Shown here piece by piece: positions 39,604 through 54,348 of a stretch of DNA of 56,227 nucleotides (position 1 is the first letter of the stretch; each line of letters opens with the position of its first letter). The notes beneath the pieces are model-generated. The model was not told the DNA's origin. It saw nothing but the letters and a program-made list of their open reading frames with translations, and made no database searches. The position numbers and the translations under genes are program-made. Source of the DNA: an uncultured bacterium (lineage in GTDB: Bacteria; Bacillota_I; Bacilli_A; RFN20; CAG-826); contig CASFRI010000033.1 in assembly GCA_949297055.1 (NCBI GenBank), positions 1-56,227 on the forward strand, read 5' to 3'.

Positions 39604-41001
39604 ATGAAACTTAACACTGTTATTTTAGCAGCTGGCAAAGGAACAAGAATGCGTTCCTTAGACGAAAATAAATCAAAATGTTCTTTTGAAATATTTCATA
39701 AACCATTAATTCTTTACGTGTTAGATGCTGTTAATGAATTAAAACCTGACCGTAATGTTGTTGTTGTTGGTAGGGGCGCAGAAGAATTAACAAAGATCGT
39801 TTATGGTAGAGCTTTAACAGTCGAACAAAAACATCAGCTTGGAACAGCGGATGCTTTAAAAACTGGCATGTCTAAGCTTGATAAAGAAGAAGGCACAACA
39901 GTAGTGTTAAATGGTGATTCACCTTTGATTCGCGGGGAAACTTTACAAAAAGCTTACGCATTTCATAAGGAAAATAATGCAAAATTAACTATCATCACTG
40001 CGACATTAAACGAAAAGAATTCATATGGAAGAATAAAAAGATTTCCTAATGGCCAAGTCGAAAAAATTATAGAAACAAAAGATTTAAAAGAAGACGAATT
40101 AAATTTAAACGAAATTAATTCCGGCATTTATTTCATCGATAATGAAGTTTTATATAAAGAAATCGATTTAATCGAACCTAAAAACGCTCAACACGAATAT
40201 TATTTAACTGATATTGTCGGTTTAGCAATTAAAGATGGTTATAAAGTATGTGCTTACACTATTGATGATGCAAAAGAAATTGGTGGCGTTAACGACCGTG
40301 TCGATTTACTTAAGGCGTTTGAATATTTAAAAATTAGAATTAACACTAATCATTTATTAAATGGTGTAACAATTTTTGATATTAATAATACTTACATCGG
40401 ACCAGATGTTAAATTATCTAATGATGTAGAAATTTATCCAAATACTTGGATACTTGGTCAGTCCACCATTTTACCTAATAACGTTATTGGCCCTAATTCT
40501 TATTTAGAAAATGTTAAAATTGGTGAATCTAATCGCATTCTTTCTTGCCATATCGTCGATACGAAGATTGGTTATCATAATGAACTAGGCCCATACGTAA
40601 GAATGCGTGGCGGATGCGTTATTGGTGATCATTGCCGCGTAGGTAATTTTGTCGAACTTAAAAACGTTCATTTAGAAGACGGTGTTAAATGTGCGCATCT
40701 AACTTATTTAGGCGACGCTAAACTTGGTGAAAATACGAATGTTGGATGTGGCGTTATAACCGCGAATTATGATGGAGCGAATAAATTCCACACTATTATT
40801 GGGAAAAATGTTTTCTTAGGCTCTAATGCGACATTAATCGCTCCTATTGAAGTGCATGATGATTCTTTTGTGGCGGCTGGTTCAACTATTACAAGCGAAG
40901 TTCTTTCTAACGACTTAGCGATTGCTAGAGCAAGACAAGTTAATAAAAAAGGCTACGCGAAAGTGTTAAGAGATAAAGCCATAGAAAAGAAAAATTCTTA
41001 A
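39604..41001 (+). CDS. glmU: Bifunctional GlcNAc-1-P uridyltransferase and GlcN-1-P acetyltransferase
   Basis: ILAAGKGTRM motif and a C-terminal hexapeptide-repeat region. Confidence 0.9.
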   Translation: MKLNTVILAAGKGTRMRSLDENKSKCSFEIFHKPLILYVLDAVNELKPDRNVVVVGRGAEELTKIVYGRALTVEQKHQLGTADALKTGMSKLDKEEGTTVVLNGDSPLIRGETLQKAYAFHKENNAKLTIITATLNEKNSYGRIKRFPNGQVEKIIETKDLKEDELNLNEINSGIYFIDNEVLYKEIDLIEPKNAQHEYYLTDIVGLAIKDGYKVCAYTIDDAKEIGGVNDRVDLLKAFEYLKIRINTNHLLNGVTIFDINNTYIGPDVKLSNDVEIYPNTWILGQSTILPNNVIGPNSYLENVKIGESNRILSCHIVDTKIGYHNELGPYVRMRGGCVIGDHCRVGNFVELKNVHLEDGVKCAHLTYLGDAKLGENTNVGCGVITANYDGANKFHTIIGKNVFLGSNATLIAPIEVHDDSFVAAGSTITSEVLSNDLAIARARQVNKKGYAKVLRDKAIEKKNS

Positions 41002-41004
41002 TCT

Positions 41005-41211
41005 ATGCATTTCGTCGATTGTTATAACAAGAACATTTATTTAAAAGATAAACTTATCGGTTATATAAACGGTGATGGGTATATGTATGTATATCATAAA
41101 CCAATCGGCTTTTTACATGAACGTGGTGATATTGTTATTAACAGTCAAAAAGCAGGCTATATTTCCTCTAATGGAGACATTTCTTTAGAGGATCAATCAA
41201 AGGATATTTAG
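41005..41211 (+). CDS. Small repeat protein (G-[YF]-I/L...G-D periodicity); a second beta-repeat miniprotein
   Basis: Repeats LIGYINGDGYMYVY / PIGFLHERGDIVIN / KAGYISSNGDISL. The start lies 3 nt after the glmU stop, with no strong SD. Confidence 0.45.
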   Translation: MHFVDCYNKNIYLKDKLIGYINGDGYMYVYHKPIGFLHERGDIVINSQKAGYISSNGDISLEDQSKDI

Positions 41212-41275
41212 GACCCGAAAACGATTTAATATTTGAAGAATTTTAAACGAAATAATTTCTAGTTAAATTTAAGAA

Positions 41276-41300
41276 TAACACCTAAAAGGTGTTTTTTCTT
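41276..41300 (+). terminator. Terminator closing the glmU operon, at the core/island boundary
   Basis: Stem AACACC / GGTGTT with a 5-nt loop, then T6. Confidence 0.8.
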
Positions 41301-41330
41301 TTAATTAAGTTTCAATAATTAGGAATTATT

Positions 41331-41945
41331 ATGACTAGCTATAGAAAATATACATACATTAAAAAAGCTAAAAATCCACCAGTGATGAACCGATGTGAAT
41401 ACATCTTAAGCTGTTTAGATGATAAAATTAAAACTGCGAATATCATCACTAATAACGCGTCAAAACAATGTTCGAACTTAAAGATATTTTTCTTATCTTT
41501 TGGCTTGCCTGTAACCGCCGCGTGGTTTACGTTATATTATTCAAAAAATGTCTACGATAATCTTTATTTAAAAATGACTGTATCTGGTATTATTGCTACC
41601 TTTTATCTTTTAATTTTTCTTCTTGTTTTATTTCTTCACAAAAGTTTTTATAAAAGACAATTTCAATATCGTAAAGTGAAGGAATCTTTAGAAACGTTAA
41701 AAGAAAAATTTATCTTTGAATTAAATAATAATTCAGTGTTTATTTCTATCGAAACATTTAATAAGTATTTCGATGTCATTAGAGAAATATCTAACAAAAG
41801 TACGAAAGTCAATGTGTGGAAGTTAATCAAAGATATTGCTTTTTGTTTAATTCCCATCCTCATCATATTCGCCTTTTGGATCATCGTCTTTGGTTACAAT
41901 TGCCGAGATTGGTTAAGCATCATTAGTAAGAACCCACTTTTATGA
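41331..41945 (+). CDS. Predicted 3-TM membrane protein (N-helix, TM hairpin, amphipathic helix, C-terminal TM)
   Basis: Hydrophobic segments FFLSFGLPVTAAWFTLYY, VSGIIATFYLLIFLLVLFL and IAFCLIPILIIFAFWIIVFGY. Confidence 0.6.
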   Translation: MTSYRKYTYIKKAKNPPVMNRCEYILSCLDDKIKTANIITNNASKQCSNLKIFFLSFGLPVTAAWFTLYYSKNVYDNLYLKMTVSGIIATFYLLIFLLVLFLHKSFYKRQFQYRKVKESLETLKEKFIFELNNNSVFISIETFNKYFDVIREISNKSTKVNVWKLIKDIAFCLIPILIIFAFWIIVFGYNCRDWLSIISKNPLL

Positions 41946-42517
41946 TTTTCATCACTTATCAAACAAAAGAATTAAAAGCTCACCATTGCATCAACGATAA
42001 ACCATATTTTGTCTACGAAAAAATTAATCAGTTCTTTGAAAGATATGGAATCGCTATCGATAAGAATATCGTTAAAGATTCTTTAGAAGACATCTTAGAA
42101 GAAATTAATTGTAATTCCTTTAATGAAAAAATATATTATGAGAAAGTAGATGAACATTTTAATTATATAATTAAACCTATAGAAATTTTTTCAAAATGGG
42201 AAAGATTATTCAAAGAATTGAACAACTATTACGAAAATAAAATAAAAGCAAAAGAGGATGTAAATAATCTATCTTCCATCAAGCTAAAAATAATCGTCAT
42301 CAATAACGATAATAAACTTGGCCCATGGCAAAGTATTGAGATACTTAATACCTTACCTTATGAGGTTGATGTTTATTGGATCAACGTAAAAAAGTTCTTA
42401 AATGTCATCGATGAAGTAAAAACAACTATGAATTCACATATGCTAAGTGAATTCACTCCTAATGCATCAAATATATTTAAGCGCAACTTACTTGATAAAG
42501 CTAAAAAGATTAGGTAA
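41942..42517 (+). CDS. Hypothetical soluble protein
   Basis: ATGA overlap with the upstream membrane-protein gene. No motif I recognise. Confidence 0.55.
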   Translation: MIFITYQTKELKAHHCINDKPYFVYEKINQFFERYGIAIDKNIVKDSLEDILEEINCNSFNEKIYYEKVDEHFNYIIKPIEIFSKWERLFKELNNYYENKIKAKEDVNNLSSIKLKIIVINNDNKLGPWQSIEILNTLPYEVDVYWINVKKFLNVIDEVKTTMNSHMLSEFTPNASNIFKRNLLDKAKKIR

Positions 42518-42522
42518 AAGAA

Positions 42523-43047
42523 TTAAGCGTAATTTACTACAACAACTACTAAGAAGTAAGCAACTATAGCTATCGCACAGATAATAGGATAGTAACACTT
42601 TATTGACCAGCCGGCTTTTCTAGAACAATTATTTTTAGAACCTAATGCTGAAGAAATATCAAAAACATATCCTGGATATTTTTCCGCAAAAGCGTTATAA
42701 ATGGCTCTTAATTTTCTTTCATTCATCAAGTATTTGTAATCAAGGTAAGCAAAAATAAATGTGGAAAAACCCATCACTAAAGCCATGATCAAGCCAAAAT
42801 ATGTTTGATGGAGTATATTTGAAAACCAACCAGAACCGCCAGAGAACGCTAAAGTGAACATCATTGTTAAGATGATGCCAATGTAAGGTAAATATAAAGC
42901 TTTCAATCTTCCTGAATTTTCATTCATTCTAGCGATGTTATTTTGAACAATTAACGCCGAGTTTTCAATATCCGCTTTTTGAATTGGTGAATCTTTTACT
43001 GCTTTTTTGATGTTTTCAGTATCAAATTCTTTCATACTTTTAACCAC
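42523..43047 (-). CDS. Predicted 3-TM membrane protein with the same layout as 41331..41945
   Basis: Hydrophobic segments LYLPYIGIILTMMFTLAF, YFGLIMALVMGFSTFIFAY and YYPIICAIAIVAYFLVVVVV. Convergent with the 191-aa gene, only 5 nt apart. Confidence 0.6.
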   Translation of the reverse strand: MVKSMKEFDTENIKKAVKDSPIQKADIENSALIVQNNIARMNENSGRLKALYLPYIGIILTMMFTLAFSGGSGWFSNILHQTYFGLIMALVMGFSTFIFAYLDYKYLMNERKLRAIYNAFAEKYPGYVFDISSALGSKNNCSRKAGWSIKCYYPIICAIAIVAYFLVVVVVNYA

Positions 43048-43102
43048 TCATAATTCCTAATTATTGTAAGTTCATTTTAAAGTAAAAGTCATGTAATTGT
43101 AA

Positions 43103-43116
43103 ACGAAAAAATAGGA
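43103..43116. repeat. Left copy of the 14-bp direct repeat flanking the IS
   Basis: ACGAAAAAATAGGA, identical to 44725..44738, 1 nt outside IRL. Confidence 0.85.
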
Positions 43117-43231
43117 TGTTAATTGAAAAACAAAATGCAACGAACCATTTTCTTTTGTTGCTTTTGCCTTTTCAACTTGAATATGTCACCATTTTATTGA
43201 TGTCTCTTGAGCAAAGAAAGGAGTTTAATAT

Positions 43232-43669
43232 ATGTGCTCAAAGAAACACATCAACTATGATGAGCTATTAAAGATATACAAATTTATATCTCTTGGCTAT
43301 TCTTTAAAAAAGATAATCCACTTGGTAAATAAGAATCGTTCAACTATTTATCGATTGATTATTAATAATTCTAAATGGAACAAAGGATCAAGTGTCTTTG
43401 GTAGTTTGAAAAATACGAGGTTTAAAGATTGTTCGAACTTATTAAATTGTAAAAGACACGGCATTACTAGTTGTCCTAATTCTTGTCCAAATTATAAAAA
43501 ATGGATTTGTCCTAAACTTAGAAGTTTTCCTTATATATGTAATTTTTGTGAACAAAGATATACGTGCAAAAAAGAAAAAAGATTATTTAATCCTGAAGAA
43601 GCTTACATTCAAAGAGAAGACAAAAAAGCGAATCGAAAAGAAATCCTAACATTAGTAGAAACGATTTGA
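43232..43669 (+). CDS. IS30-type transposase, N-terminal part (HTH plus Cys-rich segment)
   Basis: HTH-like LGYSLKKIIHLVNKNRSTIYRLI and the Cys-rich CPNSCPNYKKWICPKLRSFPYICNFCEQRYTC. Confidence 0.7.
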   Translation: MCSKKHINYDELLKIYKFISLGYSLKKIIHLVNKNRSTIYRLIINNSKWNKGSSVFGSLKNTRFKDCSNLLNCKRHGITSCPNSCPNYKKWICPKLRSFPYICNFCEQRYTCKKEKRLFNPEEAYIQREDKKANRKEILTLVETI

Positions 43670-44502
43670 AAAGATTAGATGAGACTATATCTCCACTTAT
43701 CAAACAAGGATTATCAATTGAAACTATTTATTCTACTTTAGGTAGTATTTGCCCTGTCTCTTCAAGAACTATTAGAAACTACATCGATAGAGGCTATCTT
43801 GAAGCGAAAAGAATAGATTTAAGAAATGCTGTTAAAAGAGAATATAAAGATACTTATAAATATAAACGAGTATCAAATAATCCACTTCTTAAAGTTGGAA
43901 GGACTTGGACATCATTAATGGAATATCTCACTACTCATAATAAAGATGACATCATCCAATTTGATACAGTCCACGGCAAAAAAAGCGACAAGAAATGTAT
44001 TCTTACCATCCATCATCCCGCTTCTAAATTTCAAATAGGAAGATTATTAGATAATTTCACCGCGAATGAAGTGATGAAACAAATAGATGAGATTCGTTCT
44101 TTTATCGGTGATGATTACTATTTTAAATTCTTCAGAATCTTAGTATGTGATAATGGGCCAGAATTTGACAAAATGCCCGATCTTGAAATCGATGATGAAA
44201 CTGGTGAAGTATATGCAAGAGTATTCTATACGAGACCATATCGATCAGGAGACAAAGGATCTTGTGAAAGGAATCATGAATTGTTCAGATATGTGATAGC
44301 TAAAGGAAAAAGCCTAGATGACTTAACTCAAGATGATGTTAATTTCATCTTCAGTAATATCAATTCCTATCCTAGAAAATCACTTAATTATCAATGCCCT
44401 ATTGATGTCGTTAATTCTATGATGGGAAAAGATTTCGCCACTAGGCTTAAAATCATTAAGATCCCTTTTAAACAACTAACATTTAAAAAGAAACTTAAGT
44501 AA
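43666..44502 (+). CDS. IS30-type transposase, C-terminal DDE part (-1 frame relative to orfA; open from 43597)
   Basis: DDE triad candidates FDTVHG, CDNGPEF and CERNHELFR, then NSYPRKSLNY. No ATG start (TTG in the track). Confidence 0.7.
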   Translation: MKRLDETISPLIKQGLSIETIYSTLGSICPVSSRTIRNYIDRGYLEAKRIDLRNAVKREYKDTYKYKRVSNNPLLKVGRTWTSLMEYLTTHNKDDIIQFDTVHGKKSDKKCILTIHHPASKFQIGRLLDNFTANEVMKQIDEIRSFIGDDYYFKFFRILVCDNGPEFDKMPDLEIDDETGEVYARVFYTRPYRSGDKGSCERNHELFRYVIAKGKSLDDLTQDDVNFIFSNINSYPRKSLNYQCPIDVVNSMMGKDFATRLKIIKIPFKQLTFKKKLK

Positions 44503-44724
44503 CTAGATTATAAATCAAGAGACATCACTAGTTACAAGGAATGTTGCAATTACTGTTTCAATTTTTAAAAACAGTACATCTTTCCTATACTTTTTTTATA
44601 TAGCAATCAAATGAAAACCGCAAATAAAAGTGAACTTTTGATGCATTCAACCTTTCAATCTATTTGATTTTATTAATTGAAATGTCATTTCAAGTATTTG
44701 TTGCATTTTGTTTTTCAATTAACC

Positions 44725-44738
44725 ACGAAAAAATAGGA
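44725..44738. repeat. Right copy of the 14-bp direct repeat flanking the IS
   Basis: ACGAAAAAATAGGA, 1 nt outside IRR. It runs into the AGGAGG RBS of the recombinase gene. Confidence 0.85.
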
Positions 44739-44751
44739 GGTCTAATATCAC

Positions 44752-45672
44752 ATGAATACGAACAAATTGCATGATTTAACACTTAAGTTTTATGCTTCTT
44801 TAAGAAGTAATCCAAAAGTAAAAGAAACGACGATTAAATCTTATTATTACGATGTTAATCACTTTGTTAATGGATGCCTTAACGTGTTTAAGAAAGAAGA
44901 AGTGGAAGCTTATTTCATAAGTTTAATCGATCAAAAATATCATGCTTCTTCTTTACTTAGAAAGAAAGTTTCCGTCAAGTTATTTTATGATTACTTAATC
45001 GAAACAAAAGTTATTAAAGTAAACCCAATCACAATCATTAAGTTCGATGTTAAAAAAGAGAAGTCTTTACCTAAGACAGTTTCTATAAATAACATTAGAA
45101 AAATCCTTCGTTATTTAATGAATTCCGTAAGTGAAAGCAAATCTAAACAAGCTTATTTTAGAAACGTAAGAAACCTAGCGATATTTGATTTATTAATAAC
45201 AACAGGAATAAGAATATCTGAAGCTTCTAATATCACCTTAACGGATATTGAATTAAGTGAAAGAACGATATTAATAAACGGTAAGGGGAATAAACAAAGA
45301 ATCATTTATATTTCTAGTTACGAATGTTTCATTCACTTAAAAACTTATTTAACGTTAAGATTAAAAATTAATCTTTCACATAATTATTTATTCATTAATC
45401 GCAGTTACAACAAGTTAAGTGTTCACACCATCGATAGTGTCTTTAGAAAGATAATAAAATCTCTAAAACTAAATAAATCAATTACCCCACATCATTTAAG
45501 ACATACATTCGCTACTGAGTTACTTTCAGCAGGTGGTGATTTAAGAACATTACAAGAATTATTAGGTCACGCTTCCATATCCACAACTGAGATATATACA
45601 CACGTGGATACGAAGCAAAAAAAGAAAGTTTTAAATAAATGTAATTATAGAAATAAGTTGTTTCATAAATAA
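44752..45672 (+). CDS. Tyrosine site-specific recombinase, XerC/XerD-like
   Basis: GIRISEA (Arg), HHLRHTFAT (HxxR), LGHASISTTEIYTHV (His and Tyr), and an N-terminal SAM-like core-binding domain. Confidence 0.85.
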   Translation: MNTNKLHDLTLKFYASLRSNPKVKETTIKSYYYDVNHFVNGCLNVFKKEEVEAYFISLIDQKYHASSLLRKKVSVKLFYDYLIETKVIKVNPITIIKFDVKKEKSLPKTVSINNIRKILRYLMNSVSESKSKQAYFRNVRNLAIFDLLITTGIRISEASNITLTDIELSERTILINGKGNKQRIIYISSYECFIHLKTYLTLRLKINLSHNYLFINRSYNKLSVHTIDSVFRKIIKSLKLNKSITPHHLRHTFATELLSAGGDLRTLQELLGHASISTTEIYTHVDTKQKKKVLNKCNYRNKLFHK

Positions 45673-45823
45673 AAAATTTACAAGTCCCACTCTAATGTAA
45701 AATAATTCTTAGATTAAATTGTGTTGACATATATGCGCATAATGTAGTTATATATATTATAAATTCAGGTTAGTTCTATTCGCCTTGAAATTACTAACCA
45801 AAAATATTGGGAGGTCATACAAT

Positions 45824-48800
45824 ATGACAAAAAAATTTAAAAAGGCCATGACCTTTCTCCTTGGTTTTGCTATGCTTGGCGGCGTAATCGGTGGCGTTGC
45901 TTTGGCTAGCGGAGAAGGAGGCGTAGGGGTTCATGCCGCTACTGTTGAAGACACCATAACTTATTCGGTTCTTTCGCCAGAAGCCACAGGATATACCAAC
46001 CATACGTATACCAGTTCTACTACGAATGCTACTTATGAAGGGGTGCTTTATCAAACCAGTACCCAAAATTTAATTCAAATGAGAACTTCTGGTAGCAATT
46101 CCGGGTTAGTTGTTACTACCTCTGGCGGAGTACTCGAAAAAGTATCTGTTCAATTTGATGGTTCAACAACATCATCACGTTCCGTTGACATCTATGGAAA
46201 AAATGACAATTACACCGGAAGTGTAGATTTGTACAGCACTGATTCAACGGTGACGGGCACCAATCTGCGCAAAGTTTCTTTCGGTGTCAACACAGAATTA
46301 CAAGAAGTTACAGAGGTACAAGGGTACACAGCTTTTGGTATCAAACCAGTTGGCGGTGCACTATATCTCTCTCAAGTTGTAGTTGTGTGGCAAGGTGGAG
46401 CCACCACTACGTTAACTTCTATTAGTATTGACAATACAGGCTACCCTGGGGAAGTTTACGCTGGTGCGACATGGTCTACCGATGGTCTAGTTGCAACTGG
46501 TAATTACGACGATGGTAGCACTAAAGACATAACGAATAGTGTCACTTGGAATTTTAATCCAGCAACAATTCCTACTACTCTAGGTTCAACAACAGTTAAT
46601 GTTTCTGCAACGCTTGATGGTATTACTTCTAAAGAGTTGCCAATCACTGTGGAAGTTGTAGAAGCACCAGCTATTATTTCTTGGGATTTAACTAAAGCGA
46701 GTTTTTCTTCGGCAAGTTCTGCTTCCGTAGTTTGGTCATCAAACTATGTTACTATGACATGGAATAAAGGAACCTCAAGTACTCCCGCTAATAACTATTT
46801 GGGTGGAGAACGCGCAAATTCTAGAATCTATAAGAATCAAACATTTAATGTCGCGGCTGAACCAGGATATGCTATTGTTCAGGTTATTGTGACATTTGTG
46901 TCTTCTGGTAATAGCAGCGGTTTAAGTGGAAGCTGGACAACCGAATCTAGCGAGGTAATTGAACCTATTAAAACGACGGAGGGTGAAGTTCTATTAACTG
47001 TTGATACTTCTGCCAACCCTTGTACATCAATTTCCACAACCTGTACTGACACAACATATATTTCTAAAGTAGAGGTGAAATACACTACTAAAGAAGTTGT
47101 CGTTCCTACAGTTGCTGAAGTTGCATTTACTTCCGGAAAAGGCTCTTATTTCAATGGTAGTTTGAAAGATAGCAATACATTTAGCACTGCTGATTTAGTT
47201 GTTACAACTAAAGATGATGCTGGAAATGTTGCCGCTCAATACAATACAGGCACGGGTTTTGTCGTTATTATCAATGGCGAATCTTTAGATGCTACAACAG
47301 CCATACAAACTAAATCCTTTGAAGGAGCCACAGCCGGTGGTTATCCTCTCACTGTTACTGTCGAAGGATTGACAAGCAATGAGATTAATTTAATGGTCAT
47401 CCAAAAAGATGTTGAATCTTTCAATTGGGATAAACCACAAACAACTACTTTCTATTCACACGTCGACGAATTAGCGTTGGATGGTACTTTAAGAACTTTG
47501 TTCAATGATGGTTCTTATGCTACATCCGCTTCTCGCTATGCGTTCATCGTACGAGAATATAGTGAAACTTTACCAAATAATGCTGGTGCTGAAGTCGATT
47601 TAGCTACGCACCAAGATGGAACGTTGAATGTTGCGAAAGCATCTCGATACGTTCTAGATATTTGGAACACCGATTATCCAACTAGTTTACATACTTATGT
47701 AACTATCAATGTTGAACTTCCAACATTAACAATCGTTGATAATTTCACCGGTGCGTATTATACAAACGTGACAAGAGAATTAGATGTTACGGTGACTTTA
47801 ACTGCTGGTCAAACAGTGAAGACGCTCACCAAAGATGAGTACACTTTAACTCACACATCTGTTACTCCTGCTTCAACCGATCCAATTCATGTTTATCCAA
47901 TTCTTGTTAAAGATGGTCAAGAAGTCATGACTGGCACAACACCATTGGTCATAACCCCAGAGGTGTCTACAAAAGTTTTAAATGATTTAACTATTGATGC
48001 CGCTACTTATTCGGCTGGTTCATATTTTGTTTTACCACAAGAAAGTATCTTACTTGACTACACACTTGGTGGTGTCGACGGTGTAGAATTTCTTAGCCAA
48101 GACAACTTAGTTTTCCAAGCCGCTAACGGCGAAGTCATCGATATGAATACTAGACTCTTAAGAAGTCATTCTGGTTTAGTGACCGCCACTTACTCTGAAG
48201 GTGTAGGAGAAGTATCAACTACATTTAATCTCACAGTGACGAACGCTGTTGTTGAAGAATATGTTGAACCTTCTGTTTCAGATACTGCTACTTTAACTAC
48301 GAGTATCGAGATAGGTGATATCGTTTACCTAGTTAACGAAGGTGCTGCAAAAGAACTTTCTGAAATAAGTGTAAAAAATTATGGTACTGTAGCTGACTAC
48401 ACTGGTACAATCAATAGATTGGTACCATTAGAGGTCGTTGCTGGTGCAACTGAAGCAACGTACGCGTTGAAATTAGGTGATTCATATTTATCGTTGAATA
48501 GCGATGGTAACAATCTACATACACGCACTGATGTCAACAACAATTCTTCATGGACAATTACTTTCGACGGCAACAACGCTATCATCAAAAATGTTGCATA
48601 TCCTACTAGACAATTGCAATATAATGCTGGTTCTCCAAGATTTGCATGCTACGAAAGTACTCAACAACCAGTTCAACTATACGAGAGTGAAGTAACTCCA
48701 GGAGTAGGAGATCCAGTTAGTTATTTGAAGAGTGTCATCGATGCATATCGTTTGAATAATGACTTGCTATCGATCTGCGATGCTGATACGTCAATCTATG

Positions 48801-49087
48801 CTTCTAGTGATTGGACTAGAGCCAAAGAAGTTTATAATTCTTTAGACGCTAGTGAAAAACAAGCTCTTGCGGTGCAAGATTACTTTGGTGAAGAAGGCAA
48901 AACTTACGTTGATACATATGAAATGTTACTTGCCAAAGATCCAGCAGCACAAGGAGGTTTAGCGCCTACGTTCTTTGGTAACGAAGATACGACTATCGCA
49001 GTTGTAGTAGTGATCATTACTCTTGCTGCTATTACGACTCTTGTTGGTTTCTATTATTACGATAAGAGACGTCGTGTGAATAAATAA
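45824..49087 (+). CDS. Large (~1087 aa) Thr/Ser/Val-rich surface protein with a signal peptide, Ig-like repeats and a C-terminal TM anchor
   Basis: Signal MTKKFKKAMTFLLGFAMLGGVIGGVALASG. Ig-like module LTSISIDN...GLVATGNYDDGSTKDITNSV. C-terminus IAVVVVIITLAAITTLVGFYYYDKRRRVNK with no LPXTG. GGGAGG RBS; I trimmed the start from the TTG at 45785. Confidence 0.8.
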   Translation: MTKKFKKAMTFLLGFAMLGGVIGGVALASGEGGVGVHAATVEDTITYSVLSPEATGYTNHTYTSSTTNATYEGVLYQTSTQNLIQMRTSGSNSGLVVTTSGGVLEKVSVQFDGSTTSSRSVDIYGKNDNYTGSVDLYSTDSTVTGTNLRKVSFGVNTELQEVTEVQGYTAFGIKPVGGALYLSQVVVVWQGGATTTLTSISIDNTGYPGEVYAGATWSTDGLVATGNYDDGSTKDITNSVTWNFNPATIPTTLGSTTVNVSATLDGITSKELPITVEVVEAPAIISWDLTKASFSSASSASVVWSSNYVTMTWNKGTSSTPANNYLGGERANSRIYKNQTFNVAAEPGYAIVQVIVTFVSSGNSSGLSGSWTTESSEVIEPIKTTEGEVLLTVDTSANPCTSISTTCTDTTYISKVEVKYTTKEVVVPTVAEVAFTSGKGSYFNGSLKDSNTFSTADLVVTTKDDAGNVAAQYNTGTGFVVIINGESLDATTAIQTKSFEGATAGGYPLTVTVEGLTSNEINLMVIQKDVESFNWDKPQTTTFYSHVDELALDGTLRTLFNDGSYATSASRYAFIVREYSETLPNNAGAEVDLATHQDGTLNVAKASRYVLDIWNTDYPTSLHTYVTINVELPTLTIVDNFTGAYYTNVTRELDVTVTLTAGQTVKTLTKDEYTLTHTSVTPASTDPIHVYPILVKDGQEVMTGTTPLVITPEVSTKVLNDLTIDAATYSAGSYFVLPQESILLDYTLGGVDGVEFLSQDNLVFQAANGEVIDMNTRLLRSHSGLVTATYSEGVGEVSTTFNLTVTNAVVEEYVEPSVSDTATLTTSIEIGDIVYLVNEGAAKELSEISVKNYGTVADYTGTINRLVPLEVVAGATEATYALKLGDSYLSLNSDGNNLHTRTDVNNNSSWTITFDGNNAIIKNVAYPTRQLQYNAGSPRFACYESTQQPVQLYESEVTPGVGDPVSYLKSVIDAYRLNNDLLSICDADTSIYASSDWTRAKEVYNSLDASEKQALAVQDYFGEEGKTYVDTYEMLLAKDPAAQGGLAPTFFGNEDTTIAVVVVIITLAAITTLVGFYYYDKRRRVNK

Positions 49088-49243: not shown

Positions 49244-50461
49244 ATGGGTAGTAATTTTGACATTTTTGCCTCAATTGTTTTCAAGCGTTTAAAAGGAAAA
49301 ACGCAACTTTTTTCGCCTAACACTAACGATGGATACTACAATAGAATGACACACACCTTACAAGTTTTGGCTGTTTCTATGAAATTAATTAATATTGCAC
49401 CAGAAGAGAGAAAGAACGATATTGATGTTGATGTTGTTCAAAGAATTGCGTTATGTCACGATCTTGGCCATACTCCTTTTGGACATGCTGGTGAAAGAAC
49501 ACTACACGATATTCTATCGGGAAAAGATAGATTAGGTGGGTTGATTTCAATTAACTACTATAAAAATAAGAAGCCTTTAGATGGTTTTAGACATAATATT
49601 TATTCCGCAAAGTTATATTTAAAGTTCTTTCTTACTGGGAGAAAAAGAATTAAAGATACGAAGAATACAAAAATAATAGATGGAATTTTAAAACACACAA
49701 AACCTTTCTACGATTTAAAAGAAGTAAAAGCAGGCGACATCAACTATGGTATAGATGATATTATAAAATCATACCCCCTTCTTAAAATCAAAGATTACAA
49801 CATCACTGAAACCCCACTATATCTTGAGGGAAGTATTGTAGCTCTCGCAGACGAAATAGCACAAAGATGTTCTGATACTTCTGATGCTTTGTTATCTAAA
49901 ATAATAAGTTATAAGCATCTTGAAAATAAATTACCAAGTATTTTTAAAGGCAAAAAATATAAAGATATCGAGAATACTATTGTTTGTCACTTTATTGATA
50001 GCAAAAAAATTAAATGGTTTGATAATGCTGTACGGATGACAAAAGTTGCACAAAAACAATGTGATAAATTAGAAAAATTAATCAAAGACAGTATACAAAA
50101 TTCGTATTTGATTAGAACCAATGACATTAAAAATTCTCAAATTATCAGACAAGTTTTCAAAGCGTTATACAAAAATCCTGCTCAATTAGACGACGCTACA
50201 TTAGTGAATATTTATTCAGATTGTTTAAAACAAAATCTACAATCTATTAAACAAGAAAGCAAAGACGGAACGATAAATACAAAAGAATTAGTATCCCGCT
50301 TAGTAAAAACGCATGAATTAATAGAAAAAAGCGCAATAAAGTCAAGCTTAATTAAAATAGAAACTATTTTGATAAAAAACATTGCGTTTTATATTGCAAA
50401 TTGTACAGATTTATTTCTTTATAAGAAATACAAAAAACTATATGGCGGCGAGGATGAATAA
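49244..50461 (+). CDS. HD-domain dNTP triphosphohydrolase (dGTPase-like)
   Basis: FKRLKGKTQLF, RMTHTLQV, CHDLGHTPFGHAGERTL and ALADEIAQ are the Dgt-family HD signature. Confidence 0.8.
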   Translation: MGSNFDIFASIVFKRLKGKTQLFSPNTNDGYYNRMTHTLQVLAVSMKLINIAPEERKNDIDVDVVQRIALCHDLGHTPFGHAGERTLHDILSGKDRLGGLISINYYKNKKPLDGFRHNIYSAKLYLKFFLTGRKRIKDTKNTKIIDGILKHTKPFYDLKEVKAGDINYGIDDIIKSYPLLKIKDYNITETPLYLEGSIVALADEIAQRCSDTSDALLSKIISYKHLENKLPSIFKGKKYKDIENTIVCHFIDSKKIKWFDNAVRMTKVAQKQCDKLEKLIKDSIQNSYLIRTNDIKNSQIIRQVFKALYKNPAQLDDATLVNIYSDCLKQNLQSIKQESKDGTINTKELVSRLVKTHELIEKSAIKSSLIKIETILIKNIAFYIANCTDLFLYKKYKKLYGGEDE

Positions 50462-50464
50462 TTC

Positions 50465-50493
50465 TTGCGGAATCATTTATTTATACCTATAAT
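50465..50493 (+). promoter_or_regulatory. Sigma-70-like promoter immediately after the HD gene
   Basis: TTGCGG (50465..50470), a 17-nt spacer, and TATAAT (50488..50493). Confidence 0.55.
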
Positions 50494-50498
50494 ATAGT

Positions 50499-50576
50499 TA
50501 TTCTTAAGCTCTAGTGGATGAAAACCTTTTCATTACTAGCATGAGGTAAGCGGTCGCTGGCCGCCCTTTTTGTTTG
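50499..50576 (+). ncRNA. Candidate small RNA (~75 nt) bounded by a promoter and an intrinsic terminator
   Basis: Hairpin 50511..50539 (CTAGTGGATGAAAA / TTTTCATTACTAG, one bulge). GC-rich hairpin GCGGTC-GCT-GGCCGC at 50550..50564, then CCTTTTTGTTTG. Confidence 0.35.
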
Positions 50577-50628
50577 TGTAAAGATTAACTAAATTTTCTA
50601 GCAATAAGGATTATTAAAATTATAATAT

Positions 50629-50896
50629 TTTTATGCAAATTTCGAGTTGAAATTGAAAAAATACTAAGATGAAAGTTCTTCTGAAGGTCAATTTATTCTT
50701 ATAAGCTCTACATCAATCAATAAGAATCAATATATCCATTCTGGCACCGGGCGTATCACCAGATTAAAATAAGCAACGAAATTAAAAAGTTGGCAAGCCA
50801 GCTAAATTAATGTTTGTTGTTTGTAATTTAACAAACATTGCATATAAAAGAGAAGATGGTGTTTATGTCGTCCCTATTACTTCTTTAAAAAATTAA
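50629..50896 (+). pseudogene. Decayed DUF4143-type ATPase gene (promoter-proximal 39-mer plus C-terminal remnant; the middle is deleted)
   Basis: The 39-mer at 50629..50667 matches 52416..52454 at 38 of 39 positions. The remnant FVVCNLTNIAYKREDGVYVVPITSLKN* (50786..50896) parallels FILCNTPSLYKIDDLVYATPISSI* of the intact copy. Confidence 0.6.
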
Positions 50897-50989
50897 TTGT
50901 GAAATGAAGAGTAAATTTAATTCAATAAATTGACTATATATTAGCAAAAACATTGTAAAAACATAGTAAAATTGTTAATATATTAGCAT

Positions 50990-51280
50990 ATGGAAGAAAA
51001 AGCATTAGAGTTTGTTACTTATTATGAATTACAATTAGAAATCACTAAGCGTTTTATTACTATTAGAAAAAATAGAAAAATATCACAACTTAGATTATCT
51101 GAAATATCTGGAGTGAGTTATGCTTCTCTTAGAAGATTTGAAAAAACTGGCGATATCTCTTTCGCGTCTTTAGTAAAACTCGCTATTGCGTTACGCTTAT
51201 ACGATGATTTAAATAATCTTTTTAAAGTTCATAAAGAATATCAATCAATAGAGGAAGTAATTAATGATCAAGAAAATTGA
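50990..51280 (+). CDS. XRE-family HTH protein (HipB-like antitoxin candidate)
   Basis: ISQLRLSEISGVSYASLRRFEKTGD is an HTH_3 pattern. Overlaps the kinase gene by 17 nt. Confidence 0.8.
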   Translation: MEEKALEFVTYYELQLEITKRFITIRKNRKISQLRLSEISGVSYASLRRFEKTGDISFASLVKLAIALRLYDDLNNLFKVHKEYQSIEEVINDQEN

Positions 51281-52352
51281 TGTTTTTGCTGACAAGATTA
51301 TAGTTGGCACCATTGCCTTAACTAAAGAAAAACAAGTAGCGTTTCAATACAGCAAAGAATGGCTAAAAAAAGGATTCTCAATCAATCCTATTAAACTTCC
51401 TTTGACTAGCAGAGTATTTATTTCAACTTCCCCACACTTTAAAGGATTATTTGGTGTATTTGCCGATTCTCTTCCTGATAGTTATGGCGAATTGTTATTA
51501 GATAGATATTTGAAAAGAAAAGGAATTGACATTAGTTCACTTTCATCTCTAGATAGATTAGCGTACGTTGGCTCTTCTGGCATGGGGATTTTAGAATATA
51601 TACCTGACTTCAGCGAGAAGCAAACTAATGAAAAAATTGATTTTGATTTAATTCAAAAAGAATGTAATGACCTTTTAAATTCAAAAGATATCGCGAATAT
51701 AGATATTTTATATTCTTTGGCTGGTTCTAGTGGTGGCGCTAGGCCTAAGGCGCTTATCAAATATAAAGATGAAGATTGGATAGTGAAATTCTCTTCGAAA
51801 TTTGATCCTAAAAATATCGCCGAACTTGAATACAAATATATGTCATTAGCCAAAGAACTAAAAATTAATATTCCCCAGATTGAATTAATCACTTCAGAAA
51901 AAGGAAACAAGTTTTTCCTCATCAAAAGATTTGACCGTATAAATGATCGTAAAATTCACATGATAAGTGCAGCCGCATTATTAGAATGTGATTTTAGAGC
52001 CCCATCTCTTGATTATAACGACTTAATTAAACTTACTAGAGTGTTAACAAACAATGATGAAGACGTTATCGAAATGTATAGGAGAATGGTGTTTAATGTT
52101 TTGATTGGTAATCAAGATGATCACGCGAAAAATTTTTCGTTTCTTTTTGATAGTAAAAAAATGATTTATCGTTTATCACCAGCGTATGATATTAGTCCAA
52201 CTAAGACTTATTTTGGAGAGCACACAACTTCAGTGAACGGTAAGGGAAAAGGAATTAGTGATGAAGATATGATTATAGTCGCTATAAATAATAAGATTGA
52301 TGTTTCTATCGCTAAAGATATTATCGATAAATGTCATGCATTATTAAGATAA
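51264..52352 (+). CDS. Fused (N-terminal plus C-terminal domain) short HipA-family kinase
   Basis: N-domain FADSLPDSYGELLLDRY, loop SLAGSSGGARPKALI, catalytic GNQDDHAKNFSF, and SPAYDISP. Confidence 0.85.
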   Translation: MIKKIDVFADKIIVGTIALTKEKQVAFQYSKEWLKKGFSINPIKLPLTSRVFISTSPHFKGLFGVFADSLPDSYGELLLDRYLKRKGIDISSLSSLDRLAYVGSSGMGILEYIPDFSEKQTNEKIDFDLIQKECNDLLNSKDIANIDILYSLAGSSGGARPKALIKYKDEDWIVKFSSKFDPKNIAELEYKYMSLAKELKINIPQIELITSEKGNKFFLIKRFDRINDRKIHMISAAALLECDFRAPSLDYNDLIKLTRVLTNNDEDVIEMYRRMVFNVLIGNQDDHAKNFSFLFDSKKMIYRLSPAYDISPTKTYFGEHTTSVNGKGKGISDEDMIIVAINNKIDVSIAKDIIDKCHALLR

Positions 52353-52433
52353 AAACGTTTTCTACTTTTTATTTATTTTTCATTCAATAATGTAAAACTT
52401 TAATGTGCTTAAATATTTTATGCAAATTTCGAG

Positions 52434-52462
52434 TTGAACTTGAAAAAATACTAAATTATAAT
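52434..52462 (+). promoter_or_regulatory. Putative promoter of the intact DUF4143 ATPase gene
   Basis: TTGAAC (52434..52439), a 17-nt spacer, and TATAAT (52457..52462). The -35 box lies inside the 39-mer repeat. Confidence 0.6.
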
Positions 52463-52479
52463 ATAGTCAAAGGAAATCT

Positions 52480-53712: not shown

Positions 53713-54292
53713 TGGTGGAATATTTTTTTCAAAGAAAAAAAGAGATGATAAGTTATTTTAAATTTACATTTTCTAAGACGATGAATCTTTTTTCTTAGTT
53801 TTTACTATTTATTTTTTATATAAGATCATTCACTAATGATGAAAAACCATATTTTTAGAATCGTCAATATTCTTTAAACCAGAAGCTAATAAACAAGCTA
53901 AGGACAATTCATCAAAAGCATTAGAACTAGTATTAGAAGTACCTAATAAATTAGAAGAACGAGGATTTAAAGAAGTTGAAGAGCCGCTTGAAGAAGAAAC
54001 TGAAGAACCTAATACACCAGAAATAGCAGGATTAAGAAGAAGTGGAAAATCCTATCTTTTAACGAACATTTATAAACAATATTTGTTATCTTCATAGGCG
54101 AAAGAAAAGCAAATTATTATCATTTCACTAGATAATGACTACGATGCTTTAATAAAAGTTGCTAATTCATTTTAAATAATAATTGTGCTCAATAGACCAT
54201 TTCTTTCATATCACGATGAAAAGGTGTACTTTTAATTTCTTTAGAAGAATTTCTATTAAATAAGAATAGTTTAGATTTATAAGTTATAAAAT

Positions 54293-54326
54293 CAAAATAA
54301 AAGGCCCTAGAAACGCATCTAGAGCT
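54293..54326 (-). terminator. Terminator of the XRE-TM gene
   Basis: Stem GCTCTAG / CTAGGGC (one G-U pair) with an 8-nt loop, then CTTTTATTTTGATTTT on the minus strand. Confidence 0.65.
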
Positions 54327-54348
54327 TTTATTAAGTAAGGACGATAAA

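What the first reader, a model, noticed from the sequence alone, without database searches (positions are those of the whole stretch)
41331..43047. Uncharacterised cassette: two similarly built 3-TM proteins flanking a 191-aa soluble protein
This cassette comes immediately after the core-operon terminator. A 204-aa membrane protein and a 191-aa soluble protein are translationally coupled (ATGA at 41942..41945). A 174-aa membrane protein converges on them with only 5 nt between the stop codons. Both membrane proteins share one layout: a ~50-aa N-terminal helical region, a tight TM hairpin, a basic and aromatic amphipathic helix (YKRQFQYRKVKESLETL versus YKYLMNERKLRAIYNAF), then a third TM at the extreme C-terminus. 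A helix, 2-TM hairpin, helix layout is reminiscent of SLATT-type pore-forming effectors of conflict systems, but I cannot assign any family. The location (island edge, next to an IS and a recombinase) and the lack of any recognisable domain make this my best candidate for an undescribed module, possibly a membrane-disrupting effector with its regulator or immunity protein.
Basis: inference. Interest (0 to 1): 0.65.

Follow-up and report, generated by a model that had tools for sequence, protein, structure and literature searches.

The report
Invertible switch swapping two membrane-protein units
The three genes lie on a 1.75-kb DNA segment that a neighbouring recombinase flips, so that one fixed promoter drives either one small membrane protein or the other membrane protein with its soluble partner; it is a new example of a known kind of on/off genetic switch, and its cargo is uncharacterised and possibly linked to phage defence.

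Summary
The three ORFs are real, at the stated coordinates, and under purifying selection.

The trio is an invertible cassette (window 41313..43066, 1754 bp). It is bounded by an inverted pair of a 17-nt dyad-symmetric site, CA(A/G)TAATTAGGAATTAT, which contains the ribosome-binding site of both outer genes. Related contigs carry the cassette in both orientations between the same fixed flanks. In one metagenome run (about 170x) all four junctions coexist at roughly 55:45 with no other differences.

The fixed flank on the glmU side is a terminator. The other fixed flank is a conserved promoter-like site (TTTACA-18-TAAAAT, 7 nt before the site), followed by an Xer-like tyrosine recombinase gene. 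In this strain an IS30 insertion separates the two. So the switch most likely expresses either P3 or P1-P2, never both. This matches the logic of the vpma/vsp and mba switches of mycoplasmas and ureaplasmas.

P3 is homologous to PADLOC candidate PDC-M50A. That small 3-TM protein is paired with a TIR protein on enterobacterial plasmids and fused to a HIT domain next to a TIR gene in mycobacteria. P1 is probably a distant relative. P2 has no detectable relative.

A phase-variable toggle between two membrane-acting conflict modules is the best functional guess, but it is inference only.

The parts
41277..41293 (+). Terminator hairpin of the glmU operon. It is the fixed left flank and abuts the left recombination site.
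   Evidence: One search finds a 7-bp stem with 3 GC pairs and a T-run. The same hairpin precedes the site in every glmU-context locus, whichever gene follows.
41292..41329 (+). Left inverted-repeat arm. The conserved 17-nt core CAATAATTAGGAATTAT is at 41313..41329 and contains the AGGA ribosome-binding site of P1.
   Evidence: repeat I1: 38 nt, 79% complementary; 2 matches in 56 kb against 0.09 expected by chance; the core occurs as an inverted pair in 12 of the 14 loci fetched by then; the two cassette-only fragments L009 and L010 hold one copy and none.
41313..43066 (.). Invertible segment, 1754 bp including both cores.
   Evidence: Run X2 yields a cassette-only contig covering exactly 41313..43066, with four 43-nt junction unitigs. 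The orientation-B junction is confirmed on L012. Both orientations are seen among related contigs.
41331..41945 (+). P1, a 204-aa 3-TM protein. It is a long helical hairpin plus a C-terminal TM, with conserved motifs NASKQCSNLK and FYKRQxQYRKVKES.
   Evidence: dN/dS is 0.09-0.25. hhalign to a Klebsiella PDC-M50A protein gives probability 59.7%, E 8.8e-5.
41942..42517 (+). P2, a 191-aa soluble alpha/beta protein, translationally coupled to P1 through the ATGA overlap. It has no detectable relatives outside this cassette.
   Evidence: AF2 model: pLDDT 78, pTM 0.77. There are no Foldseek, Pfam, PADLOC, PDB, plasmid or phage matches.
42523..43047 (-). P3, a 174-aa 3-TM protein (170 aa from the ATG at 43035). 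It is homologous to PADLOC candidate PDC-M50A.
   Evidence: hhalign to the Klebsiella PDC-M50A protein gives probability 96.7%, E 3.4e-10. hhalign to the C-terminal half of a mycobacterial HIT-domain protein gives 87.9%, E 3.2e-6. Metatranscriptome contigs cover it in 4 runs.
43050..43087 (-). Right inverted-repeat arm. The core is at 43050..43066 on the minus strand and contains the AGGA ribosome-binding site of P3.
43074..43103 (-). Fixed promoter-like site reading into the cassette. The -35 TTTACA is at 43103..43098, the spacer is 18 nt, and the -10 TAAAAT is at 43079..43074, 7 nt before the core.
   Evidence: It is the best hit of the scan at 10/12. The same site is found in L012. Sequence and geometry are conserved across all lineages, including the distant L014 (TTTGTA-18-TAAAAT, 7 nt before the core). 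No transcription start site has been mapped.
43118..44723 (.). IS30-family insertion. It is strain-specific and separates the cassette promoter from the recombinase gene.
   Evidence: It has 24-nt terminal inverted repeats. The transposase matches NF033563. It is absent in L002, L003, L008, L011 and L012.
44752..45672 (+). Xer-like tyrosine recombinase, the presumed invertase.
   Evidence: Pfam Phage_integrase 3.9e-41. XerC/XerD models score 1e-60 to 1e-65, below the equivalog cut-offs. The XerA structure 5hxy matches at 3.6e-35, with HxLRH, GH and IYTH motifs aligned. It is adjacent to the cassette in every glmU-context locus that extends far enough.

Best explanation
The trio is the cargo of a site-specific DNA inversion switch.

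Shown: a 1754-bp segment (41313..43066) is bounded by two inverted copies of a 17-nt dyad-symmetric site, AATAATT-AGG-AATTAT. Each copy lies in the 5' leader of an outer gene and carries its Shine-Dalgarno sequence. The segment exists in both orientations between invariant flanks, across lineages and within single samples.

Inferred from synteny and family knowledge: the adjacent Xer-like tyrosine recombinase (44752..45672) catalyses the inversion.

Inferred from conserved sequence, not from a mapped transcription start: one flank is the glmU terminator. The other is a conserved sigma-70-type promoter that fires into the cassette 7 nt before the site.
- In the window's orientation (A), the promoter drives P3. 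P1-P2 is parked behind the terminator and lies antisense to read-through, because no terminator separates the convergent genes.
- In orientation B, the promoter drives P1-P2 and P3 is silent.
The population therefore holds two subpopulations expressing alternative small 3-TM proteins.

Inferred, about 0.35: P3 belongs to the PDC-M50A family, and P1 probably does too. These small membrane proteins occur elsewhere as partners or fusions of TIR and HIT nucleotide-signalling proteins in untested phage-defence candidates. The cassette would then be a bet-hedging toggle between two membrane-acting conflict (abortive-infection or exclusion type) modules, with P2 as the soluble partner of P1.
For: Inverted repeat:
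- 38-nt inverted repeat bracketing exactly the three genes.
- the core occurs twice in 56 kb against 0.09 expected by chance.
- the core is an inverted pair in every full-length locus, including lineages at 44-55% protein identity.
- in L014 (P1 42% identical, different genomic context) the core sits inside a 29-nt inverted repeat that is 97% complementary.
- synonymous sites between lineages are saturated, yet the core shows only one A/G polymorphism.

Both orientations between fixed flanks:
- Orientation A: window, L001, L003/L013, L005, L006.
- Orientation B: L002, L004, L008, L009, L011, L012.
- L003 and L004 encode 100% identical P3 yet have opposite orientations.

Within one sample (run X2):
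- Contigs break at both cores, leaving a 1754-nt cassette contig.
- Four 43-nt junction unitigs have depths of 71.2x and 58.1x (P1 end) and 93.5x and 82.3x (P3 end), with no other variants over 2.5 kb.
- The 58.1x unitig aligns end to end on the orientation-B junction of L012.
- Runs X1 and X3 show the same pattern.
- A second lineage shows both continuations in X12 and X29.

Promoter and terminator asymmetry.

Recombinase identity and synteny.

Transcription: metatranscriptome contigs cover P3 in four runs (and P1 in two of them) but not glmU, and they run past the P3 stop.

Cargo family. TIR partners.

Known precedent for this switch logic: PMC2268961 and PMC3047005.
Against: - No transcription start is mapped. 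The promoter is a consensus match, though conserved. AT-rich flanks carry many -10-like hexamers, one of them (AATAAT) inside the core itself.
- The RNA data are undirected contigs from a roughly 95%-identical strain, so they cannot tie expression to orientation.
- The recombinase's role rests on adjacency only. In this strain an IS separates it from its former upstream region, yet inversion is still seen.
- In L014 no recombinase is visible within the 170 nt before the contig ends.
- Metagenome data cannot strictly exclude two co-resident clones with fixed opposite orientations.
- Function: PDC systems are untested candidates. There is no TIR gene in the cassette or the window. P1 to P3 homology is weak. 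P2 has no relatives. SLATT/DUF4231 hits are all below threshold.
Confidence: 0.75

Rival explanations
1. One reading: a static three-gene module in which a membrane-disrupting effector is co-expressed with a regulator or immunity protein. P3 would partner P1/P2.
For: The shared 3-TM layout and strict co-occurrence of the three genes. P3 is homologous to a defence-candidate membrane protein.
Against: The cassette inverts between one promoter-bearing flank and one terminator flank. The two units are convergent with no terminator between them, so they are most likely expressed alternately. Their co-occurrence is explained by their being the two alternatives of one switch.
Confidence: 0.08
2. The inversion is real but has no regulatory consequence. 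The repeats would be merely the shared 5' leaders of two paralogous genes. Each unit would have its own promoter, or be read from both flanks, and occasional flipping would be a neutral by-product.
For: P1 and P3 are probably distant paralogues. AT-rich flanks contain many -10-like hexamers. L014's left flank has TATAAT-like hexamers. Both P1 and P3 regions appear in the RNA contigs of one run.
Against: The core is invariant while synonymous sites are saturated. The flank asymmetry (terminator on one side, TTTACA-18-TAAAAT at a fixed 7 nt on the other) is conserved across lineages. Only about 20 nt lie between the terminator and the core on the glmU side, and the scan finds no promoter there. 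A dedicated recombinase gene is retained next to the cassette. Orientations are near 50:50 within samples.
Confidence: 0.1
3. There is no active switching. The two orientations belong to different co-resident strains, or are assembly artefacts at a repeat.
For: All evidence comes from metagenomes. Logan contigs carry no read pairing. Some samples hold several related lineages.
Against: The junction unitigs are 43 nt long and span the whole 17-nt core plus 13 nt on each side, so each junction is read directly and not inferred by an assembler. Run X2 shows no other variant in 2.5 kb at about 170x. The same pattern recurs in at least 5 runs and 2-3 lineages. Loci with identical P3 protein have opposite orientations.
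Confidence: 0.04
4. The switch works as in the best explanation, but the cargo is not defence-related. The two 3-TM units would be alternative envelope components, for example phage-receptor or host-interaction variants, or alternative membrane partners of the adjacent 1100-aa surface protein.
For: Classical inversion switches of this design vary surface components (PMC2268961, PMC3047005). A giant surface protein always follows the recombinase.
Against: Predicted extracellular exposure is tiny: an outside loop of about 10 residues and a short tail. The conserved motifs are on the predicted cytoplasmic side. P3's only detectable relatives are partners or fusions of TIR and HIT proteins on plasmids. 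The surface-protein gene lies outside the invertible segment.
Confidence: 0.3

Closest known systems
Mycoplasma agalactiae vpma / Xer1 and M. bovis vsp / Mbr phase-variation loci
   Same: An Xer-like tyrosine recombinase is encoded next to the locus. The recombination sites lie in the 5' untranslated leaders of the alternative genes. [quoted passage not shown] Here the core lies 1-5 nt upstream of the start codons and the recombinase is adjacent.
   Different: Only two alternative units instead of six or more genes. The cargo is multi-pass membrane proteins plus a soluble partner, not surface lipoproteins. The site sequence is unrelated. The host is an uncultured gut member of the Bacilli that reads TGA as stop (the ATGA overlap). 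The recombinase's role has not been tested genetically here.
Ureaplasma parvum mba/UU376 and UU172/UU171 two-gene inversion switches
   Same: Two oppositely oriented genes alternate in expression through inversion at short inverted repeats, with one promoter (PMC3047005).
   Different: In Ureaplasma the crossover lies inside the coding region, so a shared N-terminal anchor is fused to either ORF. Here the crossover is upstream of the start codons and whole transcription units are exchanged.
PADLOC phage-defence candidate PDC-M50
   Same: P3 matches the PDC-M50A models nearly full length (E 5.5e-9) and a Klebsiella member by hhalign (96.7%). P1 matches weakly (59.7%). The P1-P2 gene order (small 3-TM protein, then a tightly coupled soluble alpha/beta protein) mirrors the plasmid operons.
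   Different: In all five plasmid contexts read, the partner is a TIR or ThsB-like protein of about 280 aa. P2 shows no significant similarity to it. P3 has no partner in the cassette. PDC systems are untested. No inversion is known for them.
SLATT / DUF4231 two-TM effector domains of nucleotide-signalling conflict systems
   Same: An N-terminal helix plus TM hairpin followed by a cytoplasmic helix. P3 relatives associate with TIR and HIT genes. DUF4231 is the most frequent weak Pfam hit for the extended P1 family (7 of 16 members).
   Different: No hit reaches the Pfam threshold (best E 0.025; P3 has none). There is a third C-terminal TM. No nucleotide-signalling enzyme is recognisable in the locus.
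Phase-variable Type I R-M hsdS invertons (tyrosine-recombinase shufflons)
   Same: A tyrosine recombinase next to a conflict-related locus creates subpopulations with alternative versions (PMC7672463 and PMC9881135).
   Different: Those inversions recombine within coding sequence to reshuffle specificity domains. Here complete, unrelated-looking transcription units are swapped at a promoter.

Membership tests
Tyrosine-recombinase inversion switch that links alternative genes to one promoter (vpma/vsp type) | Inverted copies of a specific site flank the segment and lie in the 5' leaders of the alternative genes | tested here: met
   The 17-nt core occurs as an inverted pair and ends 1-5 nt before the start codons (ATG, or the GTG of P3 in the window's lineage) in all lineages.
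Tyrosine-recombinase inversion switch that links alternative genes to one promoter (vpma/vsp type) | Both orientations coexist in a population, with exchange exactly at the site | tested here: met
   Four junction unitigs in run X2 at 71/58x and 94/82x. The orientation-B junction is confirmed on L012. Further runs and a second lineage show the same. Both orientations occur among contigs.
Tyrosine-recombinase inversion switch that links alternative genes to one promoter (vpma/vsp type) | A tyrosine recombinase with intact catalytic motifs is encoded next to the locus | tested here: met
   Conserved adjacency. In the window an IS30 element is inserted between them.
Tyrosine-recombinase inversion switch that links alternative genes to one promoter (vpma/vsp type) | The recombinase is required for inversion | not testable with these tools
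   This needs genetics: deletion or a catalytic Tyr mutant plus complementation, as was done for xer1 (PMC2268961).
Tyrosine-recombinase inversion switch that links alternative genes to one promoter (vpma/vsp type) | A single fixed promoter lies outside the invertible segment | tested here: inconclusive
   A conserved TTTACA-18-TAAAAT lies 7 nt before the core on the recombinase side. On the glmU side there is a terminator and no promoter-like site. No transcription start is mapped.
Tyrosine-recombinase inversion switch that links alternative genes to one promoter (vpma/vsp type) | Alternating (mutually exclusive) expression of the units | tested here: inconclusive
   RNA contigs cover P3 in four runs and P1 in two, but not glmU. 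They are undirected and not resolved by orientation.
PADLOC PDC-M50 (small membrane protein + TIR protein) | The A component matches the PDC-M50A profile | tested here: met
   P3: E 5.5e-9, residues 33-166 on profile positions 11-131 of 134. L014 P3: 4.6e-9. hhalign 96.7%. P1 has no HMM hit; its hhalign of 59.7% is inconclusive.
PADLOC PDC-M50 (small membrane protein + TIR protein) | An adjacent TIR / ThsB-like partner gene | tested here: not met
   P2 has no Pfam or PADLOC hit. hhalign to the partner family gives E 0.15. There is no TIR fold among the listed top-50 Foldseek PDB hits. No TIR was found among the proteins scanned in the right-hand part of the window.
PADLOC PDC-M50 (small membrane protein + TIR protein) | Anti-phage activity | not testable with these tools
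   The source paper lists the 145 PDCs as untested.
SLATT clan (SLATT_1-5, DUF4231) | A significant match to a SLATT-clan profile | tested here: not met
   P1 against DUF4231: E 0.13, 13.2 bits against a cut-off of 24.7. Extended family: best E 0.025, 7 of 16 members, all below the cut-off. The P3 family has none. PADLOC RTasSLATT: 0.23 in one member.
SLATT clan (SLATT_1-5, DUF4231) | An N-terminal helix plus two-TM hairpin architecture | tested here: met
   There is an additional third TM.
SLATT clan (SLATT_1-5, DUF4231) | Genomic association or fusion with nucleotide-signalling domains (SMODS, TIR, SLOG) | tested here: inconclusive
   This holds for P3 homologues on plasmids (TIR neighbour; HIT fusion plus TIR neighbour). 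It does not hold in this locus.
Holins / bacteriocin immunity proteins | A match to a holin or immunity family, or a lysis or bacteriocin gene neighbourhood | tested here: not met
   Only isolated sub-threshold hits, for example Phage_holin_3_6 in 1 of 16 members. There are no phage-collection matches. There are no lysin or bacteriocin genes nearby.

The most novel reading that the evidence does not exclude
The cassette is a phase-variable toggle between two alternative Thoeris-like or SLATT-like membrane effector modules. P1-P2 would be a cryptic, extremely divergent PDC-M50-type pair. P2 would be a TIR-like signal generator or sensor: it has an N-terminal strand MIFITYQTKE and a strand followed by GPWQSIEIL, reminiscent of the TIR beta-A and W-x3-E catalytic motifs. 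P3 would be a stand-alone alternative effector. The recombinase would let the population hedge between two anti-phage specificities, or between their autoimmunity costs.
Probability: 0.2. Interest if true: 0.7.

Novelty: new member of a known kind. Interest (0 to 1): 0.5.

Why it matters
The finding turns three anonymous ORFs into a defined regulatory device with exact crossover sites, a candidate invertase and a candidate promoter. The device works in an uncultured gut lineage of Bacilli (chicken and bird gut metagenomes) where no genetics exists.

It ties a phase-variation switch to the PDC-M50A family, an untested phage-defence candidate. A partner rule for that family emerged here: the small 3-TM protein is followed by a TIR protein on enterobacterial plasmids, and is fused to a HIT domain beside a TIR gene in mycobacteria.

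If the cargo does act in phage conflict, this would be a case of whole-effector swapping by inversion, rather than the usual specificity-subunit shuffling.

Practically, it warns that assemblies of this locus are arbitrary snapshots of one orientation. The many 1.7-1.9-kb cassette-only contigs are a signature of the switch.

Tried and rejected
- Family searches. Pfam, NCBIfam, PHROGs and PADLOC on all three proteins gave no Pfam or NCBIfam assignment. P2 was negative everywhere.
- P1 to P3 homology. BLASTP gave E 0.092 and hhalign E 0.011 with probability 3.9%. Both used the same register, but homology is not demonstrated.
- P1 exhaustive profile search. Only 11 clusters were found in 1.84 billion representatives, one of them a spurious repeat protein.
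- Structure. The P2 model had no Foldseek match at E <= 0.001 in PDB or BFVD. The P1 model matched only generic long-helix proteins. A PDB sequence search with the P2 profile gave nothing relevant.
- Other collections. P3 had no match in the phage records or IMG/VR. P1 and P2 had no match in plasmids, nor P2 in the phage records.
- P2 against TIR partners. hhalign picks the GPWQSIE / SPWIxxE motif, but E is 0.15. This is kept only as a lead.
- Rfam on 40900..44800 gave nothing above noise.
- Literature. No paper mentions PDC-M50.
- Metagenome scan. A 6-sequence alignment found one locus, L014.
- Rejected ideas. RecA-type homologous recombination is unlikely, because 17 nt of identity is below the usual minimal processing segment (established knowledge). 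An IR-bounded transposon is unlikely, because the segment inverts in place between constant flanks and has no target duplication. P3 as immunity or antitoxin for P1 conflicts with the alternate-expression architecture.
Full report
**1. Observation**

P1 is at 41331..41945 (+, 204 aa), P2 at 41942..42517 (+, 191 aa) and P3 at 42523..43047 (-, 174 aa from GTG). The ATGA overlap and the 5-nt gap between the convergent stop codons are visible in the sequence. A terminator-like hairpin sits at 41277..41293, after glmU and a small conserved ORF.

Hydropathy and an AF2 model confirm the shared layout: an N-terminal helix, a TM hairpin, a basic helix and a C-terminal TM. P2 has no hydrophobic segment.

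All three genes are under purifying selection, with dN/dS 0.07-0.36. Each has only a handful of homologues among 5.8 billion clustered proteins, and those homologues always travel together.

**2.

A 38-nt inverted repeat (79% complementary) brackets exactly the three genes, at 41292-41329 and 43050-43087. Its inner 17 nt, CAATAATTAGGAATTAT, are identical in both arms. This sequence occurs nowhere else in the 56-kb window, where 0.09 matches are expected by chance. It contains the AGGA ribosome-binding site of P1 and of P3. It is itself dyad-symmetric: AATAATT-AGG-AATTAT.

The same core, with one A/G polymorphism, is an inverted pair in every related full-length locus. This includes lineages whose proteins are only 44-55% identical and whose synonymous sites are saturated. 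It also includes L014, where P1 is 42% identical, the genomic context is different (no glmU), and the trio is flanked by a 29-nt inverted repeat that is 97% complementary.

**3. Both orientations exist between constant flanks**

Related contigs share the order glmU, small ORF, cassette, tyrosine recombinase, large surface protein.
- Orientation A (P1-P2 next to glmU): the window, L001, L003/L013, L005 and L006.
- Orientation B (P3 next to glmU): L002, L004, L008, L009, L011 and L012.

Printing the junctions shows that the sequence outside the core is constant on each side, and that the sequence inside is exchanged exactly at the core. L003 and L004 encode identical P3 but differ in orientation. 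Many assemblies contain cassette-only contigs of 1.7-2.0 kb, as expected when an assembly graph breaks at an invertible repeat.

**4. Both orientations coexist within one sample**

In run X2 (about 170x) the Logan contigs end at 41329, start at 43050, and include a contig covering exactly 41313..43066 (1754 nt).

Four 43-nt unitigs span the core plus 13 nt on either side:
- P1 end: the reference junction at 71.2x and an alternative junction at 58.1x.
- P3 end: the reference junction at 93.5x and an alternative junction at 82.3x.

No other variant appears in 2.5 kb. The 3 mismatches of the alternative unitigs are what one expects if the other flank is joined. Laid on the orientation-B locus L012, the 58.1x unitig aligns over all 43 nt across promoter flank, core and P1 start.

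This puts orientation A at about 55% in X2. Runs X1 and X3 show the same two forms. A second lineage shows both continuations after the shared flank in X12 and X29. This is direct evidence for population heterogeneity at the site. Strictly, it does not exclude two co-resident clones.

**5. Flank asymmetry and the likely logic of the switch**

On the glmU side the core is preceded by the operon terminator and about 20 nt of T-rich spacer. The scan finds no promoter-like site there.

On the other side the best promoter match of the region, TTTACA-18-TAAAAT (43103..43074, minus strand), ends 7 nt before the core. Its sequence and geometry are conserved in all lineages, including L014 with TTTGTA-18-TAAAAT also 7 nt before the core.

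The two units are convergent, with 5 nt between the stops here and overlapping stops in other lineages. No terminator lies between them.

I therefore infer one fixed promoter that drives the unit placed next to it: P3 in the window's orientation, P1-P2 after inversion. The other unit would be silent and covered by antisense read-through.

Metatranscriptome contigs from four runs cover P3 and extend past its stop. Two runs also cover part of P1, and none covers glmU. So the cassette is transcribed, but these undirected contigs from a roughly 95%-identical strain cannot assign expression to an orientation. The transcription start is not mapped.

**6. The recombinase**

The 306-aa protein at 44752..45672 is an Xer-like tyrosine recombinase:
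- Pfam Phage_integrase, 3.9e-41.
- XerC/XerD models at about 1e-60 to 1e-65, below the equivalog cut-offs.
- XerA structure 5hxy at 3.6e-35, with the HxLRH, GH and Tyr motifs aligned.

In IS-less relatives its start codon is about 60-65 nt from the core. In the window an IS30-family element (43118..44723) has inserted between the cassette promoter and the recombinase ribosome-binding site. Inversion is nevertheless seen in the IS-bearing population. That the recombinase is the invertase is inferred from adjacency and from precedent. It has not been tested.

**7. The cargo**

P3 matches PADLOC PDC-M50A nearly full length (E 5.5e-9) and phrog_19896 (1.4e-5). PDCs are 145 untested candidates found embedded in BREX, DISARM, type I R-M or Hma loci.

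Following the family:
- A Klebsiella Col-type plasmid carries a 158-aa PDC-M50A protein (5.6e-17), directly followed by a 278-aa ThsB-like TIR protein (2.6e-40).
- Homologues lie on 88 enterobacterial plasmids. In all five contexts read, the next gene is the homologous ~280-aa protein, which carries the PHVFISHSS and SPWIxxE motifs. RefSeq annotates it as TIR in two of them.
- On mycobacterial plasmids a TIR gene is followed by a HIT-domain protein whose C-terminal half is P3-like (hhalign 87.9%, E 3.2e-6).
- hhalign of the P3 family against the Klebsiella protein gives 96.7%, E 3.4e-10.

So P3 belongs to a family of small membrane modules that are partnered with nucleotide-signalling proteins. 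This is the logic ascribed to SLATT effectors, although no SLATT or DUF4231 profile is matched above threshold.

P1 forms a tiny family: 11 clusters in 1.84 billion representatives. It aligns weakly with the Klebsiella PDC-M50A protein (59.7%, E 8.8e-5 over 132 columns) and with P3 in the same register. It is probably a distant paralogue, but this is not proven.

P2 folds as an alpha/beta protein (pLDDT 78) with no structural or sequence relative. Two short motifs recall TIR proteins: the N-terminal strand MIFITYQTKE, and strand 116-120 followed by GPWQSIEIL. hhalign picks the second motif against the PDC-M50 partner family, but only at E 0.15. This is a lead only.

Downstream of the surface-protein gene lie an HD/dGTPase-like gene, a HipA-like kinase and a PDC-S01-type AAA_14/DUF4143 ATPase. 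This is an accessory, conflict-flavoured neighbourhood, but it holds no TIR gene.

**8. Mechanism and confidence**

| Claim | Basis | Confidence |
|---|---|---|
| The cassette inverts at the 17-nt sites | Shown | about 0.95 |
| The adjacent Xer-like recombinase does it | Inferred from synteny and family knowledge | about 0.8 |
| One fixed promoter gives alternate expression of P3 or P1-P2 | Inferred from conserved flank asymmetry | about 0.7 |
| The units are alternative membrane-acting conflict modules of the PDC-M50A type | Inferred from remote homology and the partners of homologues | about 0.35 |

The main functional rival is envelope or receptor variation. Mutual exclusivity argues against P3 being an immunity or regulatory partner of P1/P2.

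**9. Comparison and novelty**

The switch logic matches the vpma/vsp systems and the two-gene Ureaplasma mba/UU376 and UU172/UU171 switches. Shared features are recombination sites in the 5' leaders, a unique promoter and an adjacent Xer-like recombinase.

It differs in cargo (3-TM proteins and a soluble partner, not lipoproteins), in site sequence and in host. The host is an uncultured member of the Bacilli from chicken and bird gut that reads TGA as stop. It also differs from hsdS-type shufflons, which recombine inside coding sequence.

I file it as a new member of a known kind of switch, carrying an uncharacterised cargo. Interest is moderate (0.5). It would be higher if the cargo proves to be a swappable defence effector pair.

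Noticed in passing
window 43118..44723: An IS30-family element with 24-nt terminal inverted repeats (GTTAATTGAAAAACAAAATGCAAC). A duplication of about 14 nt (ACGAAAAAATAGGA) lies at its ends. Its transposase reading frame is split (43232-43669 / 43666-44502, a -1 frame change). It sits between the cassette promoter and the recombinase ribosome-binding site, and it is absent from all other lineages.
   Followed up: partly
window 49244..55383: An accessory, conflict-type neighbourhood: an HD/dGTPase-like gene (49244-50461; PADLOC dGTPase 1.6e-35), a HipA-like kinase (51264-52352; HipA_C 7.7e-51), an AAA_14+DUF4143 ATPase matching PDC-S01 (52480-53712; 1.7e-96) and an HTH_3 protein (54349-55383).
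   Followed up: partly
window 45785..49087: An 1100-aa surface protein with a C-terminal TM anchor and no Pfam or NCBIfam match. A large protein (860-1117 aa, faint Big_3 hits) follows the recombinase on the same strand in every glmU-context locus. It may be co-transcribed with the recombinase.
   Followed up: no
window 41005..41211: A small ORF (68 aa; 54-80 aa in relatives) conserved directly after glmU and before the terminator. It has no family assignment (weak beta-flower hit, E 0.055).
   Followed up: no
window 41331..43047 versus L008 6001..7705: Mosaic divergence inside the cassette: dS is 0.26 for P1 but 0.04 for P2 and 0.09 for P3 between the same two strains. This suggests recombination between lineages within the cassette.
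   Followed up: no
L015 3959..5276; L017-L020; L016 2072..3579: A partner rule for PADLOC candidate PDC-M50. On enterobacterial plasmids (88 records) the ~140-160-aa 3-TM protein was followed by a ~280-aa TIR/ThsB-like protein in all 5 contexts read. On mycobacterial plasmids a TIR gene is followed by a HIT-domain protein with a P3-like C-terminal membrane half.
   Followed up: partly
window 41942..42517 (P2 residues 1-12 and 116-136): Invariant motifs MIFITYQTKELK and KIIxxNNxxKLGPWQSxEILN resemble the TIR beta-A strand and the W-x3-E catalytic motif. The resemblance is not statistically significant (hhalign E 0.15).
   Followed up: partly
L014 4958..6581 (Ga0256407_10016547): The same trio and core site appear in a different genomic context (radical-SAM gene upstream, no glmU). 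The contig ends 170 nt beyond the promoter-like flank, so the presence of a recombinase is unknown. The module may be mobile or ancient.
   Followed up: partly
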